Below, one piece after another: positions 14,181 through 26,504 of a stretch of 64,000 bases of DNA. The position numbers were made by a program, and so were the translations under genes. The notes under the pieces were generated by a model, which saw only the letters and a program-made list of their open reading frames with translations, had not been told where the DNA came from and ran no database searches. This stretch comes from Candidatus Atabeyarchaeum deiterrae (GTDB lineage Archaea; Asgardarchaeota; Atabeyarchaeia; Atabeyarchaeales; Atabeyarchaeaceae). Location of the stretch: assembly GCA_037310415.1 (NCBI GenBank), contig CP147780.1, forward strand, positions 224,001 to 288,000. The letters run 5' to 3'. Every line of letters starts with the position of its first letter. The first letter of the stretch is position 1.

Positions 14181-17100
14181 TCAATACTCTGGCGGGGCAC
14201 CCTCTGTCAATCTGACCCTTGTTCTGCGCTGAATGATTAGTATGATCATCACGGGAACAGCGACAGAAATTAACAGCACTGTGAAAATCATCAACACCGG
14301 GGTTTCCACTCGCGGCACAACCCAGACGTAGGCATAGTCTAATGAGTACGCTCCATCTGAATCCACGAGCAGAAGGAAAAGAGCATAAAGACTAGATGGA
14401 AAAGCCAGTTCCGTATTCGAAGCCAGAGTATAGACGTAAGTAGAAGACGGAATCGTCAACGTTCCCCTAAAGCCCTGCGAAGTATTATCATACTGCAGTG
14501 CAGATAGGACGACCTCCGAGTATAGGAAACCAGGTGCATAGTAAAGGTAAGGATCTATCAATATTGCATACGCTTTCATCGTACTCCTGGCTCCTGCGCC
14601 ATCATCTTCAACATCAGTACCGTTAACAACGACTGATATAGTGTCTCCCAGTCTGACAGACAGGATACTCGAGGGAGGCAGCGCCGTGAGCGGCTGTGAA
14701 TTAATCGTTGAGGTCACATTACTAAGTTGTGGGTCTATGCTCGCAACCATGATCATATTCACTTCGTTGAAGATCGATGAATGATTCCCGCTGGTTGCTG
14801 AAATCCAGTACATGTAAACGTCGGTGCTGTTGTTCGGGGTGGGCATGTATTTTGCATAGTAAGTTGTCGCGCTTGTTGGTGTCGTCTTCAGAGTAACGTA
14901 TGTGATGGTCTTGCTGTTTGGCAAGTAGAAGTTTGGATATCGCGTCAAGTATATGGTCACGTTTGAAATGCTTGATGTTGTGACAGTGAAGTTCACATAG
15001 TCCCCTCCATATCTCGTTATCATCGGCGCGCCACTTGGCAGAAGGCCTTGCAGGTATTGAGGGAGTGGATACGCGGGATTATGATAAGTTGCGAGAGCGA
15101 CATTCTGGATTTCCGGCGGGGAATTGACAACCTCGATCTCAAGAGTTCTTGCGATTTGTTGCCCGAGGTAGGTCATGTTGAAGTGGAAGGAGTAGAATCC
15201 TTCAGACTGAAGTGTTATGGACACGTTGTAATAGATCCCGCTAATATTCGTCAAACCAATGGGTATCCATGTTCCGTTGTAGGAAGTGCCTTCAACTTGT
15301 ATTGAATGGAGTAGCTGCCCAGAAGTTCTGTTGATTACCATTGCTCCGATCCCGAATGTCTCGCCACTCTTAACACGTGTTTTGGAGACAATGGTCTCAA
15401 TTGTCGCATTCTTCTTACTCAGCAGCCAGTTAACAATGTTCTCTATCAACTTTTTGTTGCCAGGAAATGAAGCGTCGTTCAACTGATCGTCCAGAGTGAA
15501 TTGGATGCTTCCAGAAGCAACTATTCTCCCACCATTTGGAACGTCGCATGCTGCCAACATGGGAGAGTAGTTCCATTCTTGAGGTGAAAATGCAAGCGAG
15601 TTCGCTTTGGATGTGTTAACTGAAAGACTTGAACCAAAATCGAAGAGGTAGCTGCCTACACCTGAGGTGATTGGATGAGTTGACAGATTTGATATAACAA
15701 CATCTGATGTTATTTGTTTCTCAATTGCCAGATCAATGTAATTTGCCACGTAGTCCGACATGTATCGAATGCCATAACGGGCTATTATCCCGTTCACGGC
15801 TTCTGTGACCATGTTAGGATAATGATCGCCCAGGATGAGCAGGGAACCATTGCCTTCAACAAACCTCTGGATTGCAGCTAATTCTTCTGAACCGAACATT
15901 ATTCTGGGATCTGGTAAAACCAGTATGTCATATTGACTTATCTTCGGGTAAGTTATCGGGCTATTGTCTTCGTAGACGCTATACCCGTGGGCAGTCAAGT
16001 CCGAGGCGAGTTTGTAGAGTGTGGATTTTGTAGAGTATGTAGAATCAGTATGAAATAGATCAAAGTACATGCGCCCCTTGGGGGCCGCAACGGTGAAACT
16101 CGTAGAGACGCTGCCAACCAATGCTCCAGAAGTTGTGTTTCTGAACAGAATCTGACCCATATACCGACCCAGACTTGCATTAACAGGTATTGAGACGTTT
16201 ACGTGTAGAGTTGAAAGACCTACTATGTTTGTGAAGCTTGAATTGCCAAGTCTAGTGAATTGTGTCGCATTTCCACCATTTAGAGAGACAGTCAGGTTTG
16301 TGGTGGAGGCGGCTAGCACGGACACCGCTACCTCAATCGAGTCGCCCAAGTACCCAACGAAGTAAGGCGGGTTTATCAACTGCGATGGGTAAAACATCAT
16401 GATCGGATAATGAGATCTAGAACCGAAGCGACTCAAATACTGGTAAGCGTTACCAACGTTGATCAGCCCTGAGCCAAAAGTGTTGACGTCAGAGCCAAGG
16501 CTCGTAGATGTATTCATCAACGCTATTCTGATTGTGGCGGCTATCTCAGCTTTGGTGGTTGTTGAATTGAGTGTGCTCAGAAGTGGAGAACTCAGTAGCA
16601 GAGCAACTGATCCTGAGACCAGTGGAGCTGCTGCACTTGTTCCACTTAGCGATACATAATCCCCAGTTGTTAAGCCGACGCGAGTCGCATAATAGAAGAT
16701 TGCTGAATCCGTTGATAACGTAGACACTATGTTAACGCCGGGCGCAAGAACATCGGGGTACGCTCGTCCATCTATCGTTGGTCCCCTACTGCTGAAGGAC
16801 GCTATGGAACTTGTTCCATCAGACGCTCCAACTGATATCGCAAGTCTCGCCGCCGCTGGAACGCCTCCAGTCGAGTAGCTTGGTCCTTCATTGCCTGCGG
16901 AGACCACAACGACTACCCCTTTTCTCACGGCGTTGTCAACTGCCAGACTTAAGGGGTCATCCGGGTCCGGTGATCCTCCGCCGAGCGATAGGTTGATCAC
17001 GTTGGCACTTTGATTAACAGACCATTCTACTGCTTTGATTATTCCAGCCGTAAATCCTTGACCGAACATATCGATGCATTTGGCGCTGATTAGACTTGCA

Positions 17101-17822
17101 CGCGGGGCAACCCCCTGATAATCTGGGGATATAACTCCAGCCCCCGCAACGATTCCAGCTACATAGGTTCCATGGCCAAAGTTGTCGGTAGTATCTTCGT
17201 CTTGGGTGTAGTTGTAGGCTGTCCGTACGAATGAAGCACTATCGATGACCTTGCCACTCAGATCAAGGTGACTTGAGTCGATACCGCTATCTGCAATCGC
17301 CACCTTTATACCCATTCCCCCGAACATGCTCCTTAGTGATGAAGCATTAATCGCGTCAATCCAGGGGGACCCAGGGGATCTCAAGTTCACAATGCCAGTG
17401 CTCTGGTACACTGGCTCGATTTTGATTTCCCTATTCAAGTAAATTGACTTGATTTCACCAACGGAGAAGAGCTCGCTGACTTTGTTTAGTGGAAGCTCAA
17501 CCAAAGCTGCCGGAATAATACTGAAAGTTGTGATTAGTTTACAGCCTGTGAGTCGCCTGATGCTCTCAAATGGCCTCGGATCAGATCCATCCTTGAGTAA
17601 AACTATTACCTGCACATTACTGCTTGTCGGATTGTTCAACAGTTCTTCCAGCTTGGGATCTATGCTGGGGAGTTGTTGCGGAATGTCAGCTGCGGGCACT
17701 ATATGCTGGCTAGGTCTTGCATTGAGTGGCGATATCAACATTGGCGGGGCGACGAAGATCGAGACCAAGAGTATAACAGCGGTTAAACGAACACAATATC
17801 TTATGTTGGCTCTACCTCTCAA
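14181..17822 (-). CDS. Membrane-anchored S8 subtilase with GIFT/DUF4350-like domain (Site-1-protease-like architecture)
   Basis: Signal peptide, prodomain, catalytic triad (ADSGID, GHGTYVAG, SGTSAAAP), GIFT-like domain (YFDLFH..GY.V..YDILVLP..GSLLILGD), C-terminal TM helix and basic tail. Confidence 0.85.
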   Translation of the reverse strand: MRGRANIRYCVRLTAVILLVSIFVAPPMLISPLNARPSQHIVPAADIPQQLPSIDPKLEELLNNPTSSNVQVIVLLKDGSDPRPFESIRRLTGCKLITTFSIIPAALVELPLNKVSELFSVGEIKSIYLNREIKIEPVYQSTGIVNLRSPGSPWIDAINASSLRSMFGGMGIKVAIADSGIDSSHLDLSGKVIDSASFVRTAYNYTQDEDTTDNFGHGTYVAGIVAGAGVISPDYQGVAPRASLISAKCIDMFGQGFTAGIIKAVEWSVNQSANVINLSLGGGSPDPDDPLSLAVDNAVRKGVVVVVSAGNEGPSYSTGGVPAAARLAISVGASDGTSSIASFSSRGPTIDGRAYPDVLAPGVNIVSTLSTDSAIFYYATRVGLTTGDYVSLSGTSAAAPLVSGSVALLLSSPLLSTLNSTTTKAEIAATIRIALMNTSTSLGSDVNTFGSGLINVGNAYQYLSRFGSRSHYPIMMFYPSQLINPPYFVGYLGDSIEVAVSVLAASTTNLTVSLNGGNATQFTRLGNSSFTNIVGLSTLHVNVSIPVNASLGRYMGQILFRNTTSGALVGSVSTSFTVAAPKGRMYFDLFHTDSTYSTKSTLYKLASDLTAHGYSVYEDNSPITYPKISQYDILVLPDPRIMFGSEELAAIQRFVEGNGSLLILGDHYPNMVTEAVNGIIARYGIRYMSDYVANYIDLAIEKQITSDVVISNLSTHPITSGVGSYLFDFGSSLSVNTSKANSLAFSPQEWNYSPMLAACDVPNGGRIVASGSIQFTLDDQLNDASFPGNKKLIENIVNWLLSKKNATIETIVSKTRVKSGETFGIGAMVINRTSGQLLHSIQVEGTSYNGTWIPIGLTNISGIYYNVSITLQSEGFYSFHFNMTYLGQQIARTLEIEVVNSPPEIQNVALATYHNPAYPLPQYLQGLLPSGAPMITRYGGDYVNFTVTTSSISNVTIYLTRYPNFYLPNSKTITYVTLKTTPTSATTYYAKYMPTPNNSTDVYMYWISATSGNHSSIFNEVNMIMVASIDPQLSNVTSTINSQPLTALPPSSILSVRLGDTISVVVNGTDVEDDGAGARSTMKAYAILIDPYLYYAPGFLYSEVVLSALQYDNTSQGFRGTLTIPSSTYVYTLASNTELAFPSSLYALFLLLVDSDGAYSLDYAYVWVVPRVETPVLMIFTVLLISVAVPVMIILIIQRRTRVRLTEGAPPEY

Positions 17823-23720: not shown

Positions 23721-24956
23721 TTAGAATCTGACTGGAGCAAAGAACAAGATCATAGGACCGAGTTTGAGTTTTCTTCTTTTCGATTTGACTTCACTCGTTA
23801 TTGCCAACAGAGTGTTTAGATGCTCATCCAGGCTGGAGACGGTTGCGTCTCTGTAAAGTGCGATTGTGTTTATCTTCTCTTCTCGTACGAGAAACTGTAT
23901 TATGATCGGGTTAATTGAATAGTCATGTTTCCAAGGGTTATTTGGTGTTAACACAATCCTTCTGCTTTCCGGGATTAGCTCTACTTTTGTTCTTGCCATG
24001 GCGACTTGATCGACTGTTTCTGCTGAGCCTTTGTCGTCTTTTCCCTCGAAGTGTTCTAGTGTTCTGCCAAGTATTCCCAGATTCTCAAGGTTCCCCGAAA
24101 TAGATTGGTTTGCCTTGGCTTCCTGTTCCTTGCTGGGCAATACTTTCAGGCACATGTATAGAGGCACGTTGTCTTCCTCTAGCCTTCTTGAATACACCTC
24201 GAGAGTCTTGCGGGCAACTTCAGAACATTTCTCGTTACTACTGACGACCCTTAGTGCTGGGCCGAATATTGTTGACGTGTTCTCTGGAGGTTTTGAATTA
24301 GATGCTGAATATGATGGTTGGAATCGTTCTTTTATCTCCTCGAGAGCCGTCTCATATACGTGCGCTGATCCCATCACGGTGAGCAAGTCTCCACGTGAAG
24401 AAGTGCCACCGAAATGCGCAGCGACTTCTGTCAGGAATACAGCATAACTTCCTGAGACATCTTCAGACCATGCCCTTGCAATATCGTTGCTTCGGATATA
24501 TTCGACTAGGTTCACCTTCCCTTTTATCCGCTCAAACATCACTATGTTTATGCAGGGCGGATCTGGACTCTTTATATCCTCAACTGGATTCCAGAACTGT
24601 GCGAAAGCGGATGAAGCAGTGTTCTTCAACGCATCACTTATTTGTTGTATTTGGTTGAACCCGAATCTTTTCCTCATGCACCAACCATAAGTGTATGTGT
24701 GCTCACCTCTCTCCGCCGTAGAGTACTGAGGCCAGTATTGCTGTTCGATAACTTGGGGAGATAAGCCAATGTAATCTTGTGGAGTGATGCTCCCCGTTCT
24801 CCAGTCAGTTAGATGAGCAATTCCACAGAGACATTCAAGCGTTCTTTGTCCCTTTCTTTCAGTGTATGCGATTGTTCCTTTCTCAACGACGGTGTTGACG
24901 ATCGAACGCCATGCCGTATCGACGTTTCTGTTTCTGGTTAAGAATGGTCCATACAT
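23721..24956 (-). CDS. Tandem-domain thymidylate-synthase / dCMP-hydroxymethylase-fold protein
   Basis: Domain 1 has YTYG, WNP, PPC135, RSND...D166 and SAHVY. Domain 2 is degenerate (VDQV..SRR..NNP..QFLVR..YR). Confidence 0.82.
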   Translation of the reverse strand: MYGPFLTRNRNVDTAWRSIVNTVVEKGTIAYTERKGQRTLECLCGIAHLTDWRTGSITPQDYIGLSPQVIEQQYWPQYSTAERGEHTYTYGWCMRKRFGFNQIQQISDALKNTASSAFAQFWNPVEDIKSPDPPCINIVMFERIKGKVNLVEYIRSNDIARAWSEDVSGSYAVFLTEVAAHFGGTSSRGDLLTVMGSAHVYETALEEIKERFQPSYSASNSKPPENTSTIFGPALRVVSSNEKCSEVARKTLEVYSRRLEEDNVPLYMCLKVLPSKEQEAKANQSISGNLENLGILGRTLEHFEGKDDKGSAETVDQVAMARTKVELIPESRRIVLTPNNPWKHDYSINPIIIQFLVREEKINTIALYRDATVSSLDEHLNTLLAITSEVKSKRRKLKLGPMILFFAPVRF

Positions 24957-24971
24957 CTTCTACTACCTCAT

Positions 24972-26504
24972 TTATTGAACCGTCTCTTCGCCAAGCAGAC
25001 GATAGTAAGGATGTGGTGGACGCGGCAAGACACCCATAGTCTTAAGAGCCTCGTCTGCAATGGCAGCTTCCGCTCCAGCCACATCGGGGAAGATGTTTTC
25101 CGCGTTCTTAATAGGTCCATATAGGTTCAAGTCAATTCCGAAGATTGTAGGAAGGGTGTAATCAAAGTCGAATCTGATGTCGTCGTGGTTTTTCACTGAA
25201 GAGTGAAGGTTGTGAATGCCTATGGCTGTGGGAAAACCGAATTGATTTTTCAAGATCCATGCCTGCTCAAGTGCAGACAGCGCACCTCCTCCGAGTCTTG
25301 GCACTCCTGGATCGATTATTGGCTTCTCAACGATATTCTTGAAAAAGCTCAAAGTCTCGCTTGTCTTCTTGTCTGACTCCTCAGCGGATTCCGCGTAGGA
25401 CAAGCAAATGGCATACTTTACTCCTCCGATCTCTTTGAGACTGCCGCGTTCCTTGTCGCTTTTAGTGATTATTGAGTTGTAGATTGTTCTATCCTCGATT
25501 CCAATGTCTTTGGCGAGTCTCAAACCGTGAATCCGAGCTTCAGCAAAGCTGGAGTCAACTATAATCGGTGAATCAGTCTGATCAACCGCGAATAGGAGGT
25601 ACTGTTCGATTGCCTCGACGGTTTGTCCGACGATGTGAACCATAACCGGAATGCTATAGTGTAATGAAAGTTCGTCTTGCTTGTGGATTAGCTCGGCTGC
25701 AACTCTCCTGTCAAAAGTCCCAGTCTTCACGTCTGAGACTATCTTGTCTTTTGTGTAGAAAATCGTACCAGCCATGACAGTTGGGTACTGTCCTCTATAT
25801 CCACCGAGCTTAACCCCGCATAGGTCATAGACTTGAAGCTCTGTCCCAGTAAACGTGAACATAGAGCCCAGCGCGTTTCTGAGTCTCCTCTTGTCTACCT
25901 CGGTCCTCTTCACGAACGCAGAAATCGCCCTTTTCCAGTCGTAGATTTCTTTCCGCTCAGGGGGATAAATCGGTTCCATTTCAAGAGGCTTCAGGTCCGA
26001 ACGGGCGAATAGTTCGTCTATCTTCACTCCAATTTTTTCGAGCGAAGTTTCATCGCTAAGATCTTCAACAGAGGCTATTTGCTGTTGGAAGCGCTTGACA
26101 TATTCTGATGGATTAGCCCCTCTAAAATACGTTGGAAGAAGTGTGGGAATAGTCCCTTGGCTACCTATCACCGTGTATTTGTCGTCTATCCCATTTGAGT
26201 GAAGCGCTTTGAATGTCTGCCCAGGCTCGTGACCTTTAACGCGTTGACCGCAGACCACGACATACCTGATCTCCGGGTTTGATATTATGTTTTGAATTAT
26301 CTTAGCAAGACCCTCGTTTTCAGTTTCGCAGAATCCAGCTATGGCCACGCGATCCGCTCTAGTTTTGATGACTTTGCCCGGAAGGTCGTAGGATCCGCAA
26401 GTCATCACTGCTATCTTGGCTCCTGGGTTACTGACGACATAGTCGCCGGGCAGCGGGGGCCACCTTGTTGCTTTCTTTGTATTATGAACCTGCTTTTCTT
26501 TCAT
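24972..26504 (-). CDS. Soluble MtrA-MtrH fusion (corrinoid protein + methyl-H4MPT methyltransferase)
   Basis: MtrA: WPPLPGDYVV, TENEG..IISNPEIR, CG..VKGH92EPGQ, RFQQQ. MtrH: GG..G.YPTVMAGTIFY, G.FDR, IYNSI, PIIDP, YGPI.NA. No TM anchor. Confidence 0.88.
   Translation of the reverse strand: MKEKQVHNTKKATRWPPLPGDYVVSNPGAKIAVMTCGSYDLPGKVIKTRADRVAIAGFCETENEGLAKIIQNIISNPEIRYVVVCGQRVKGHEPGQTFKALHSNGIDDKYTVIGSQGTIPTLLPTYFRGANPSEYVKRFQQQIASVEDLSDETSLEKIGVKIDELFARSDLKPLEMEPIYPPERKEIYDWKRAISAFVKRTEVDKRRLRNALGSMFTFTGTELQVYDLCGVKLGGYRGQYPTVMAGTIFYTKDKIVSDVKTGTFDRRVAAELIHKQDELSLHYSIPVMVHIVGQTVEAIEQYLLFAVDQTDSPIIVDSSFAEARIHGLRLAKDIGIEDRTIYNSIITKSDKERGSLKEIGGVKYAICLSYAESAEESDKKTSETLSFFKNIVEKPIIDPGVPRLGGGALSALEQAWILKNQFGFPTAIGIHNLHSSVKNHDDIRFDFDYTLPTIFGIDLNLYGPIKNAENIFPDVAGAEAAIADEALKTMGVLPRPPHPYYRLLGEETVQ

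What the first reader, a model, noticed from the sequence alone, without database searches (positions are those of the whole stretch)
23721..24956. Single-chain pseudo-dimeric TS with reciprocal loss of active-site halves
Seen: an internal duplication (MYGPFL/IFGPAL; FNQI..SSA..WNP versus VDQV..SRR..NNP). Domain 1 keeps Cys, RSND and HxY but lacks the RR pair; domain 2 keeps R332-R333 but lacks Cys, RSxD and HxY. Known: TS is an obligate homodimer in which the RR pair binds the nucleotide phosphate in the other subunit's active site. Inference: the two domains form one intramolecular dimer with a single active site, and the complementary losses argue for selection rather than decay. The dead half may dock the corrinoid partner.
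Basis: partly seen in the sequence, partly recalled or inferred. Interest (0 to 1): 0.72.

Follow-up and report, generated by a model that had tools for sequence, protein, structure and literature searches.

The report
Single-chain pseudo-dimeric thymidylate synthase homolog
This Asgard archaeon's only thymidylate-synthase-type gene encodes two fused copies of the enzyme fold, one keeping the catalytic residues and the other only the phosphate-binding arginine pair. It therefore looks like a one-chain "dimer" with a single active site, always encoded right behind a vitamin-B12-type methyl-carrier gene.

Summary
The gene lies on the minus strand (23721..24956, 411 aa).

- **Fold:** residues 1-218 are a thymidylate synthase (TS) fold (Z 13-15). 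Residues 232-411, folded alone, match only the TS superfamily (Z 10.6-13; next hit Z 5).
- **Motifs:** domain 1 keeps Cys135, RSND155-158 and H199-x-Y201. It has variable residues (Ser-Ser here) where relatives have the Arg-Arg pair. Domain 2 keeps only S331-R332-R333.
- **Packing:** a two-chain model joins the halves through homologous strands (ipSAE 0.94, best control 0.00). R332 touches R155, S156 and S197. This may partly reflect the model's memory of solved TS dimers.
- **Selection:** domain 2 is under purifying selection (dN/dS 0.16-0.26).

- The uracil-selecting Asn is Asp166 in all 24 family members, against 1 of about 145 single-domain relatives.
- In 18 of 151 sampled Asgard genomes (5 families) the gene always follows an MtrA-MtrH fusion.
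- None of those 18 has ThyX. In 16 of them it is the only TS homolog.

Substrate and one-carbon donor remain open. The idea that the dead half docks the corrinoid partner was not tested and gets no support from conservation. Other agents of this scan noted the same system earlier on other DNA.

The parts
23721..24956 (-). Whole ORF, 411 aa plus stop (P0001): tandem TS-fold protein, called 'TS2' here.
   Evidence: Pfam PF00303 scores 55.8 bits on residues 73-213. It is the only PF00303 match in the closed 2.76 Mb genome.
24303..24956 (-). Domain 1 (residues 1-218): the catalytically equipped TS fold.
   Evidence: VIA Z 13-15 to MilA and ThyA chains over residues 8-218. TIGR03283 covers residues 7-207.
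24609..24614 (-). S115-S116: the position of the Arg-Arg pair in relatives. It is lost and variable in domain 1.
   Evidence: 0 of 24 family members have RR here, whereas most single-domain relatives do.
24552..24554 (-). Cys135 in the PPC motif: the catalytic nucleophile position.
   Evidence: Invariant. Aligned with the TS 'PPCH' motif.
24483..24494 (-). R155-S156-N157-D158: the phosphate- and pterin-binding RSxD motif.
   Evidence: R155, S156 and D158 are invariant. R155 and S156 are predicted to touch R332.
24459..24461 (-). Asp166, at the position of E. coli Asn177 / L. casei Asn229 (the pyrimidine-specificity residue).
   Evidence: It lies at R155+11 with no gaps and is aligned to the TS 'PFN' motif. 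It is Asp in 24 of 24 family members and in 1 of about 145 single-domain hits.
24354..24362 (-). H199-V200-Y201: the HxY motif.
   Evidence: H199 and Y201 are invariant.
24264..24302 (-). Inter-domain linker (residues 219-231).
   Evidence: pLDDT is below 50 for residues 214-226 in the full-length model.
23724..24263 (-). Domain 2 (residues 232-411): a TS fold without Cys, RSxD or HxY.
   Evidence: Model pLDDT 87. Only TS-superfamily matches at Z 10.6-13. dN/dS 0.16-0.26.
23958..23963 (-). R332-R333: the Arg-Arg pair retained in domain 2.
   Evidence: Invariant. R332 (chain 2, residue 111) is predicted to touch R155, S156 and S197 with an expected error of 0.5-0.6 A.
24957..24971 (-). 15-nt spacer between the mtrAH stop codon and the TS2 start codon. 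It contains GAGGT about 9 nt before the ATG.
   Evidence: read directly from the sequence. Consistent with co-transcription.
24972..26504 (-). Upstream gene: a soluble MtrA-MtrH fusion, 510 aa (P0192). It is the only MtrA in the genome.
   Evidence: Pfam MtrA on residues 10-177 and MtrH on residues 223-491. E=1e-32 to solved MtrA structures, with the 'GH' cobalt-ligand motif aligned. Only MtrA match in the genome.

Best explanation
The gene encodes a single-chain, asymmetric pseudo-dimer of the thymidylate synthase fold.

Domain 1 (residues 1-218) carries the whole catalytic apparatus of one ThyA subunit: nucleophile Cys135, R155/S156/D158, Y90 and H199/Y201. It has lost the Arg-Arg pair that a ThyA subunit normally lends to its partner. 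Domain 2 (residues 232-411) is a second TS fold that has lost all catalytic residues. It keeps the dimer-interface sheet and S331-R332-R333.

The two domains pack back to back like the two subunits of ThyA. R332/R333 complete the nucleotide-phosphate site of domain 1, so the protein has one composite active site instead of two. Domain 2 is kept by selection as the structural and phosphate-binding half.

What is shown here: the folds, the motif pattern, their conservation, and purifying selection. What is predicted: the packing and the R332 contacts.

What is inferred about function: it is the lineage's enzyme for C5 one-carbon transfer to a 2'-deoxypyrimidine 5'-monophosphate. Cys135 would add to C6. 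The base is either dUMP or, because of Asp166, dCMP (roughly even odds). The enzyme works together with the MtrA-MtrH corrinoid protein encoded immediately upstream. My odds are about 35% that MtrAH delivers the methyl group through methyl-Co(III), and about 35% that the chemistry is ordinary methylene-pterin chemistry with MtrAH in an auxiliary role. The confidence given (0.78) is for the architecture: one chain, one composite site, domain 2 as the selected partner half.
For: **Fold**
- Domain 1 scores Z 13-15 against TS and MilA chains.
- Domain 2 folded alone scores Z 10.6-13.0 against seven TS-superfamily chains. The next match is Z 5.
- The domain 2 profile hits TS in the PDB at E=7e-4.

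**Reciprocal motifs**
- They are conserved over 24 sequences down to 41% identity.

**Packing**
- The full-length AlphaFold model has pTM 0.78.
- The two-chain prediction gives ipSAE 0.94 against a best control of 0.00. That mark was reached by 58 of 80 solved complexes and 2 of 110 mismatched pairs. The runs share at least 96% of contacts, and the partner's pLDDT is 87-88.
- The contacts pair homologous strands (1:138/153 with 2:131/146). They place R332 on R155, S156 and S197, and Q354 on R155 and G196.

**Selection**
- Conserved domain 2 residues are enriched at that interface (p=3.6e-4).
- dN/dS is 0.03-0.10 for domain 1 and 0.16-0.26 for domain 2.

**Role in the cell**
- It is the only PF00303 match in the closed 2.76 Mb genome. 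There is no ThyX, no TK1-type thymidine kinase and no DHFR.
- Of 151 sampled Asgard genomes, 18 (5 families) carry it. None of the 18 has ThyX, although 78 of 151 overall do. In 16 of the 18 it is the only TS homolog.

**Link to MtrAH**
- An MtrA match lies 2.1-2.3 kb upstream on the same strand in 18 of 18 genomes.
- The pair is kept in three lineages whose flanking genes differ, with a 3-nt gap or a 4-nt overlap between the genes.
- The closest single-domain relatives are MtrA-TS-DUF4346 fusions.
Against: - No coordinates were available, so the model could not be superposed on a ThyA dimer. The geometry rests on the contact list of one predictor.
- TS dimers are abundant in the PDB, so the high score may be memory of those structures.
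- The two halves are not detectably similar by sequence.
- NCBIfam's equivalog cut-off for methanogen-type TS is not reached (97.3 against 174.55 bits).
- Asp166 argues against dUMP as substrate.
- If the substrate is dCMP, a route from 5-methyl-dCMP to dTMP is not evident. The genome has no PF00383 deaminase, and only 2 of 5 other carrier genomes have one.
- The invariant D158, which binds the pterin in ThyA (from knowledge of that enzyme), fits ordinary methylene-pterin chemistry better than a direct methyl-corrinoid donor.
- The MtrA-like domain of the DPANN fusion P0027 lacks the His aligned to the cobalt ligand. This weakens the fusion argument for corrinoid chemistry.
Confidence: 0.78

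Rival explanations
1. Ordinary thymidylate synthase chemistry. The pseudo-dimer methylates dUMP with methylene-H4MPT (or methylene-folate) and releases the dihydropterin. The MtrAH gene upstream is a co-regulated C1-metabolism neighbour, not the methyl donor.
For: - Cys135, Y90, RSND and HxY are all kept. D158, which binds the pterin in ThyA, is invariant.
- The genome has three dCTP-deaminase/dUTPase-family genes that can supply dUMP.
- The lineage encodes the H4MPT methyl branch (PMC11291895, read).
- It is the only TS homolog and there is no ThyX.
Against: - Asp166 replaces the uracil-selecting Asn in 24 of 24 members.
- MtrAH adjacency is 18 of 18 across 5 families and survives complete turnover of the flanking genes.
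- MtrA-TS fusions exist in relatives.
- No DHFR was found. This is weak evidence, since H4MPT users need a different reductase.
Confidence: 0.3
2. It is not a thymidylate synthase. It is a deoxycytidylate (or cytidylate) C5-methylase or hydroxymethylase. dTMP is made downstream by deamination, or the product serves DNA modification.
For: - Asp166 sits exactly where T4 dCMP hydroxymethylase has Asp, and where the Asn-to-Asp mutant of ThyA gains dCMP activity (established knowledge).
- The L. casei N229D entry 1njc scores higher against the domain 1 profile than the wild type (36.0 against 33.3 bits).
- The best fold matches include CMP hydroxymethylase MilA and a phage dCMP-modifying enzyme.
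- The only single-domain hit with Asp (P0130) sits on a virus-like contig next to DNA methyltransferases.
Against: - The gene is chromosomal, in housekeeping synteny: argS, Nep1 and ribosomal protein genes.
- It is the sole TS-family gene in genomes that also lack ThyX and TK1, so some route to dTMP must pass through it.
- A PF00383 deaminase is absent here and in 3 of 5 other carrier genomes.
Confidence: 0.35
3. Domain 1 still forms a classical homodimer with domain 1 of a second chain. Domain 2 is an appended accessory module, for example a docking platform for MtrA or a regulator, and not the partner half.
For:
- Many single-domain relatives have also lost one or both Arg residues, so an RR pair in trans may not be essential in this clade.
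Against: - Domain 1 has no RR to give to a twin.
- The invariant residues of domain 2 (S331, R332, R333, Q354, L356, R358) all lie in the predicted domain 1 interface next to R155, S156 and S197.
- No conserved surface remains on domain 2 outside that interface (one search compared).
Confidence: 0.07
4. Domain 2 is a decaying relic of a tandem duplication with no present function.
For: It evolves 3-6 times faster than domain 1 (52% against 72% mean column identity; dN/dS).
Against: - dN/dS is 0.16-0.26, well below 1.
- There are no stops or frameshifts in 18 genomes of 5 families.
- The fold is predicted with confidence (pLDDT 87).
- The invariant residues cluster at the interface.
Confidence: 0.03

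Closest known systems
Homodimeric thymidylate synthase ThyA, short archaeal/methanogen type (Pfam PF00303; NCBIfam TIGR03283, MJ0757 type)
   Same: - Same fold in both domains.
- Domain 1 keeps Cys, Y90, RSxD and HxY.
- The phosphate site is completed by an Arg-Arg pair from the partner half.
- The interface is formed by the back-to-back sheets (predicted).
   Different: - One chain instead of two identical ones, and one active site instead of two.
- Reciprocal loss of motifs between the halves.
- Asp instead of the uracil-selecting Asn.
- The score is below the TIGR03283 equivalog cut-off.
- Obligate operon with MtrA-MtrH.
T4 dCMP hydroxymethylase, CMP hydroxymethylase MilA, and the Asn-to-Asp ThyA mutants that methylate dCMP
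   Same: - TS fold.
- Asp at the specificity position.
- MilA is among the best fold matches (Z 14.8, rmsd 2.1, 165 residues aligned).
   Different: - Those enzymes are homodimers of phages or antibiotic pathways.
- This one is chromosomal, single-chain, the only TS-family gene of its genome, and linked to a corrinoid protein.
MtrA-TS-DUF4346 fusion proteins (about 445-510 aa) of DPANN archaea and some Asgard genomes
   Same: - They are the nearest sequence relatives of domain 1 (E 1e-18 to 1e-10).
- The TS fold is physically linked to an MtrA-type domain.
   Different: - They have a single TS domain, mostly with RR and always with Asn.
- MtrA is fused rather than encoded upstream, and there is no MtrH.
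- They carry a DUF4346 tail.
- The MtrA-like domain of P0027 lacks the aligned His.
About 790-800 aa MtrA-like/TS/DUF4346/TS'/DUF4346 proteins of CPR/DPANN (P0126; earlier scan notes e1-1223084, e1-3678979, e1-4459344)
   Same: A tandem TS fold in one chain, with the nucleophile kept in only one copy.
   Different: - The duplication is recent and near-identical. Only the Cys is changed (to Ser) in the second copy.
- There is no reciprocal Arg-Arg pattern.
- The active site is altered (RTHN, no HxY).
- It probably arose independently.
MtrA/MtrH of the methanogen methyl-H4MPT:coenzyme M methyltransferase
   Same: The upstream gene has genuine MtrA and MtrH domains. The cobalt-ligand His motif aligns to solved MtrA.
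   Different: - Soluble fusion, with no membrane anchor and no MtrB-G.
- No MCR in these lineages.
- The published description leaves the methyl acceptor open (PMC11291895).

Membership tests
Thymidylate synthase ThyA (PF00303, EC 2.1.1.45) | TS alpha/beta fold | tested here: met
   Domain 1 scores Z 13-15. Domain 2 scores Z 10.6-13.0 with the next fold at Z 5.
Thymidylate synthase ThyA (PF00303, EC 2.1.1.45) | Score above Pfam's gathering threshold | tested here: met
   55.8 bits against 24.3, from domain 1 only. Domain 2 alone scores 11.9 bits, E=0.12.
Thymidylate synthase ThyA (PF00303, EC 2.1.1.45) | Catalytic Cys, RSxD, the Tyr of the YG motif, and HxY | tested here: met
   C135, R155/S156/D158, Y90 and H199/Y201 are invariant in domain 1. 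All are absent from domain 2.
Thymidylate synthase ThyA (PF00303, EC 2.1.1.45) | Arg-Arg pair donated to the partner's phosphate site | tested here: met
   The pair is absent from domain 1 (S115-S116) and present in domain 2 (R332-R333). R332 is predicted to touch R155, S156 and S197. This is a prediction only.
Thymidylate synthase ThyA (PF00303, EC 2.1.1.45) | Asn at the uracil-selecting position (E. coli N177) | tested here: not met
   Asp166 in 24 of 24 family members.
Thymidylate synthase ThyA (PF00303, EC 2.1.1.45) | Homodimer of identical subunits with two active sites | tested here: not met
   The sequence allows only one complete site per chain. The predicted packing is domain 1 with domain 2. 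The oligomeric state in solution cannot be tested here.
Thymidylate synthase ThyA (PF00303, EC 2.1.1.45) | dUMP to dTMP activity with a methylene-pterin | not testable with these tools
   Only indirect evidence: it is the sole TS homolog, and the genome has no ThyX and no TK1.
Methanogen-type TS equivalog (NCBIfam TIGR03283) | Score above the curated equivalog cut-off | tested here: not met
   97.3 bits against 174.55, covering residues 7-207.
dCMP/CMP hydroxymethylase-type TS homologs | Asp at the specificity position | tested here: met
   Asp166.
dCMP/CMP hydroxymethylase-type TS homologs | Phage or secondary-metabolite context alongside a separate TS | tested here: not met
   Housekeeping chromosomal synteny and no other TS.
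MtrA-TS-DUF4346 fusion family | MtrA domain and DUF4346 in the same chain as the TS domain | tested here: not met
   P0001 has no MtrA or DUF4346 Pfam match. MtrA is encoded in the upstream gene, fused to MtrH.

The most novel reading that the evidence does not exclude
TS2 and MtrAH together are a third, B12-dependent route to thymidylate.

- MtrH loads the methyl group of methyl-H4MPT onto the Co(I) corrinoid of MtrA.
- The single active site of the pseudo-dimer, with Cys135 added to C6, takes the methyl from methyl-Co(III) onto C5 of dUMP or dCMP.
- No dihydropterin is formed and no dihydropterin reductase is needed.

This would also name the so far unknown methyl acceptor of the Asgard MtrAH fusions.
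Probability: 0.3. Interest if true: 0.92.

Novelty: new variant of a known kind. Interest (0 to 1): 0.74.

Why it matters
Thymidylate synthesis is essential, and only two enzyme classes (ThyA and ThyX) are known. In at least five Asgard families the only candidate departs from ThyA in three ways:
- it is a fused asymmetric pseudo-dimer;
- it carries a cytosine-type specificity residue;
- it is locked in an operon with a corrinoid methyl carrier.

This has four consequences:
- It is a natural experiment on half-of-the-sites reactivity in TS. One site per dimer evidently suffices.
- It offers a concrete acceptor for the MtrAH fusions, whose methyl fate was published as 'uncertain' (PMC11291895).
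- It means that surveys treating Asgard 'ThyA' as ordinary (PMC9931769) combine at least four architectures.
- It makes a possible B12-dependent thymidylate route directly testable with two recombinant proteins.

Tried and rejected
- **Sequence-only detection of the duplication:** BLASTP of the two halves and hhalign of the two domain profiles are not significant. Fold evidence was needed.
- **Fold searches on the full-length model:** these reported only domain 1, so domain 2 had to be folded alone.
- **Direct superposition on a ThyA dimer:** impossible, because model coordinates are not exposed. The contact list was used instead.
- **DPANN fusion neighbourhoods:** no MtrH or pterin-binding gene lies nearby, so they say nothing about the donor.
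- **Paper searches:**
  - 'MtrA + thymidylate synthase + corrinoid': 0 papers.
  - 'DUF4346': 0 papers.
  - 'thymidylate synthase + MtrH': 1 irrelevant paper.
  - TS plus pseudodimer terms: nothing relevant.
  - The search was badly chosen (MTRH is a hospital acronym).
- **Route from 5-methyl-dCMP through a CDA-fold deaminase:** PF00383 is absent here and in 3 of 5 other carriers, so this route is not general.
- **Thymidine salvage:** no TK1-type kinase.
- **Binding of TS2 to MtrAH:** not tested. The single complex job went to the domain 1/domain 2 question.
Full report
**What is there.** The finding's coordinates hold one ORF on the minus strand, 23721..24956, encoding 411 aa (P0001). Pfam sees a thymidylate synthase (TS) domain only in residues 73-213 (55.8 bits). 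NCBIfam's methanogen-type TS model covers residues 7-207 but scores below its equivalog cut-off (97.3 against 174.55 bits). The next gene upstream on the same strand (24972..26504) is an MtrA-MtrH fusion. It is separated by 15 nt that contain a GAGGT. The window's other genes (Nep1, archaeal argS) and the names of the homologs place it in Asgard archaea of the Njord/Atabeyarchaeia group.

**The observation.**
- Domain 1 has invariant C135, R155-S156-x-D158, Y90 and H199-x-Y201.
- Its two residues at the Arg-Arg position (S115-S116 here) vary freely and are never RR.
- Domain 2 has invariant S331-R332-R333 inside a DQ...SRRI...NP segment. It has nothing at the Cys, RSxD or HxY positions.
- Both domains begin with an invariant Gly-Pro.

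The two halves are not significantly similar by sequence. The duplication is shown in two other ways:
- Weak profile hits of the C-terminal half to TS (E=3e-4; E=7e-4 to PDB TS chains).
- Fold. Domain 2 modelled alone (pLDDT 87) matches seven TS-superfamily chains at Z 10.6-13.0 with 147-159 residues aligned. The next match has Z 5.0. Domain 1 matches TS and MilA at Z 13-15.

**Do the halves form one dimer-like unit?**
- The full-length model has pTM 0.78 even though the linker and residues 53-93 are poorly modelled.
- A two-chain prediction of domain 1 with domain 2 scored ipSAE 0.94 against 0.00 for the best of three controls. That mark was reached by 58 of 80 solved complexes and 2 of 110 mismatched pairs. 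The runs agree in at least 96% of contacts, and the partner's pLDDT is 87-88.
- The contacts pair homologous strands of the two domains. They put R332 against R155, S156 and S197, and Q354 against R155 and G196. This is the arrangement known from ThyA, where the partner's Arg-Arg pair joins the RSxD arginine and serine on the dUMP phosphate (established knowledge).
- TS dimers are many in the PDB, so this pass shows likeness and may be memory. I could not superpose coordinates.
- Independent support: 12 of the 18 conserved domain 2 residues lie in the predicted interface, against 41 of 172 others (p=3.6e-4).

**Selection, not decay.** In within-genus pairs with unsaturated dS, dN/dS is 0.03-0.10 for domain 1 and 0.16-0.26 for domain 2. 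The frame is intact in 18 genomes.

- *Asp166.* It lies eleven residues after R155, at the position of E. coli Asn177 / L. casei Asn229. It is Asp in 24 of 24 members of the two-domain family, but in only 1 of about 145 single-domain hits. That single exception (P0130) sits on a virus-like contig. By established mutagenesis this residue selects uracil (Asn) or cytosine (Asp). Fittingly, the L. casei N229D entry scores above the wild type against the domain 1 profile.
- *Sole TS homolog.* The genome is one 2.76 Mb contig. This gene is its only PF00303 match. There is no ThyX, no TK1-type thymidine kinase, no DHFR and no PF00383 deaminase, but there are three dCTP-deaminase-family genes.
- *Distribution and MtrAH link.*
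  - In a sample of 151 Asgard genomes, 18 from five families carry the two-domain gene.
  - None of the 18 has ThyX, although 78 of 151 overall do.
  - In 16 of the 18 it is the only TS homolog.
  - In 18 of 18 an MtrA match lies 2.1-2.3 kb upstream on the same strand.
  - The MtrAH-TS2 pair also persists in two 41-42% identical lineages whose flanking genes are entirely different, with a 3-nt gap or a 4-nt overlap.
  - This MtrA is the only one in the genome. It is a genuine MtrA, with the cobalt-ligand His motif aligned to the solved structures.
- *Nearest relatives.* The closest single-domain relatives of domain 1 are MtrA-TS-DUF4346 fusions of DPANN archaea. The same fusion occurs in an Asgard genome.

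**Mechanism.** The architecture is well supported (about 0.8): one composite active site, with domain 2 serving as the structural and phosphate-clamping half. The chemistry is open.
- For ordinary methylene-pterin chemistry: the full set of ThyA catalytic residues, including the pterin-binding Asp158, is kept. dUMP can be made by the DCD-family enzymes.
- For a methyl-corrinoid relay (methyl-H4MPT to MtrH, to Co-MtrA, to C5): the invariable operon, the fusions, the absence of any other MtrA, and the fact that the published account of these MtrAH fusions leaves the methyl acceptor unknown (PMC11291895).
- Against leaning on the fusions: the MtrA-like domain of the DPANN protein P0027 lacks the aligned His.
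- Asp166 points to dCMP. However, a general path from 5-methyl-dCMP to dTMP is not evident.
- I put the relay at about 0.3-0.35 and a cytosine substrate at about 0.4-0.45.

**The docking idea.** I did not test whether domain 2 docks MtrA. Conservation does not favour it. Outside the domain 1 interface, the conserved residues of domain 2 are only Pro, Gly, Ala and Asn. Domain 1, by contrast, has a long, invariant and poorly modelled segment (residues 53-93) on the cofactor side.

**Literature and earlier notes.**
- The study of Asgard thymidylate metabolism treats Asgard ThyA as a normal archaeal ThyA. It mentions no tandem domains or Mtr genes (PMC9931769).
- No paper in the searchable library links TS with MtrH, or describes a pseudo-dimeric TS.
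- Other agents of this scan have already noted the same system on other DNA (e1-5396361, e1-5499172, e1-5483881), and related five-module tandem-TS proteins in CPR/DPANN (e1-1223084 and others). I reached the points above from my own calls. The note that an MtrAH contact had already been predicted elsewhere only influenced my choice to spend the single complex job on domain 1 with domain 2.

**Verdict.** This is a new architectural and active-site variant of the TS family. Its operon partner raises a realistic, testable possibility of a new route to thymidylate.

Noticed in passing
L034:848-2185 (G083:C277) and G058:C13: Two Asgard genomes of other families (f22, f19) carry MtrA and TS in one frame. 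The 445-aa protein is MtrA-TS-DUF4346, the architecture otherwise seen in DPANN.
   Followed up: partly
L033:1284-2297 (G146:C8): In Asgard family f9 (24 of 25 genomes) the TS match lies in 333-360 aa frames. The 337-aa protein has its TS match at residues 199-312 and an unassigned N-terminal stretch of about 110-190 aa. This looks like a further ThyA architecture.
   Followed up: partly
P0027 residues 62-90 against window 24972-26504 (-): The MtrA-like domain of the DPANN MtrA-TS-DUF4346 protein has a 2-residue gap where MtrA has the cobalt-ligand His (KGHEPGQ against SG--SGQ). It may not bind a corrinoid in the MtrA manner.
   Followed up: no
P0126 (786 aa, metagenome protein): A recent tandem repeat of TS plus DUF4346 behind an MtrA-like domain. 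The second TS copy is near-identical, but its Cys is Ser (APC against VPS). Both copies have RTHN and no HxY.
   Followed up: partly
L035:4743-5477 (P0130): This is the only single-domain hit with Asp at the specificity position. It keeps RR and lies among many small same-strand ORFs with Dam and N6/N4 methyltransferases. It is probably an archaeal virus nucleotide-modifying enzyme.
   Followed up: partly
G000:C1 at 577937-578404, 1215571-1216032 and 2119351-2119737 (outside the window): Three dCTP-deaminase/dUTPase-family paralogs occur in a genome with no CDA-fold deaminase. One could act on 5-methyl-dCTP if TS2 methylates dCMP.
   Followed up: no
G000:C1 at 1912391-1913260, 2370449-2371291 and 820750-821601 (outside the window): Three stand-alone MtrH homologs exist besides the fused one, yet the genome has only one MtrA.
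   Followed up: no
window 14181-17822 (-): A 1213-aa subtilase with an IFT52 GIFT-like / ABC_transp_aux domain after the S8 domain.
   Followed up: no
L002:8900-10095 (Atabeyarchaeia-1, CP147779): The syntenic locus of the relative has an MJ0013-like gene plus a Cas12f1-like/TnpB gene inserted between the aminotransferase and argS. The window has no such insertion.
   Followed up: no
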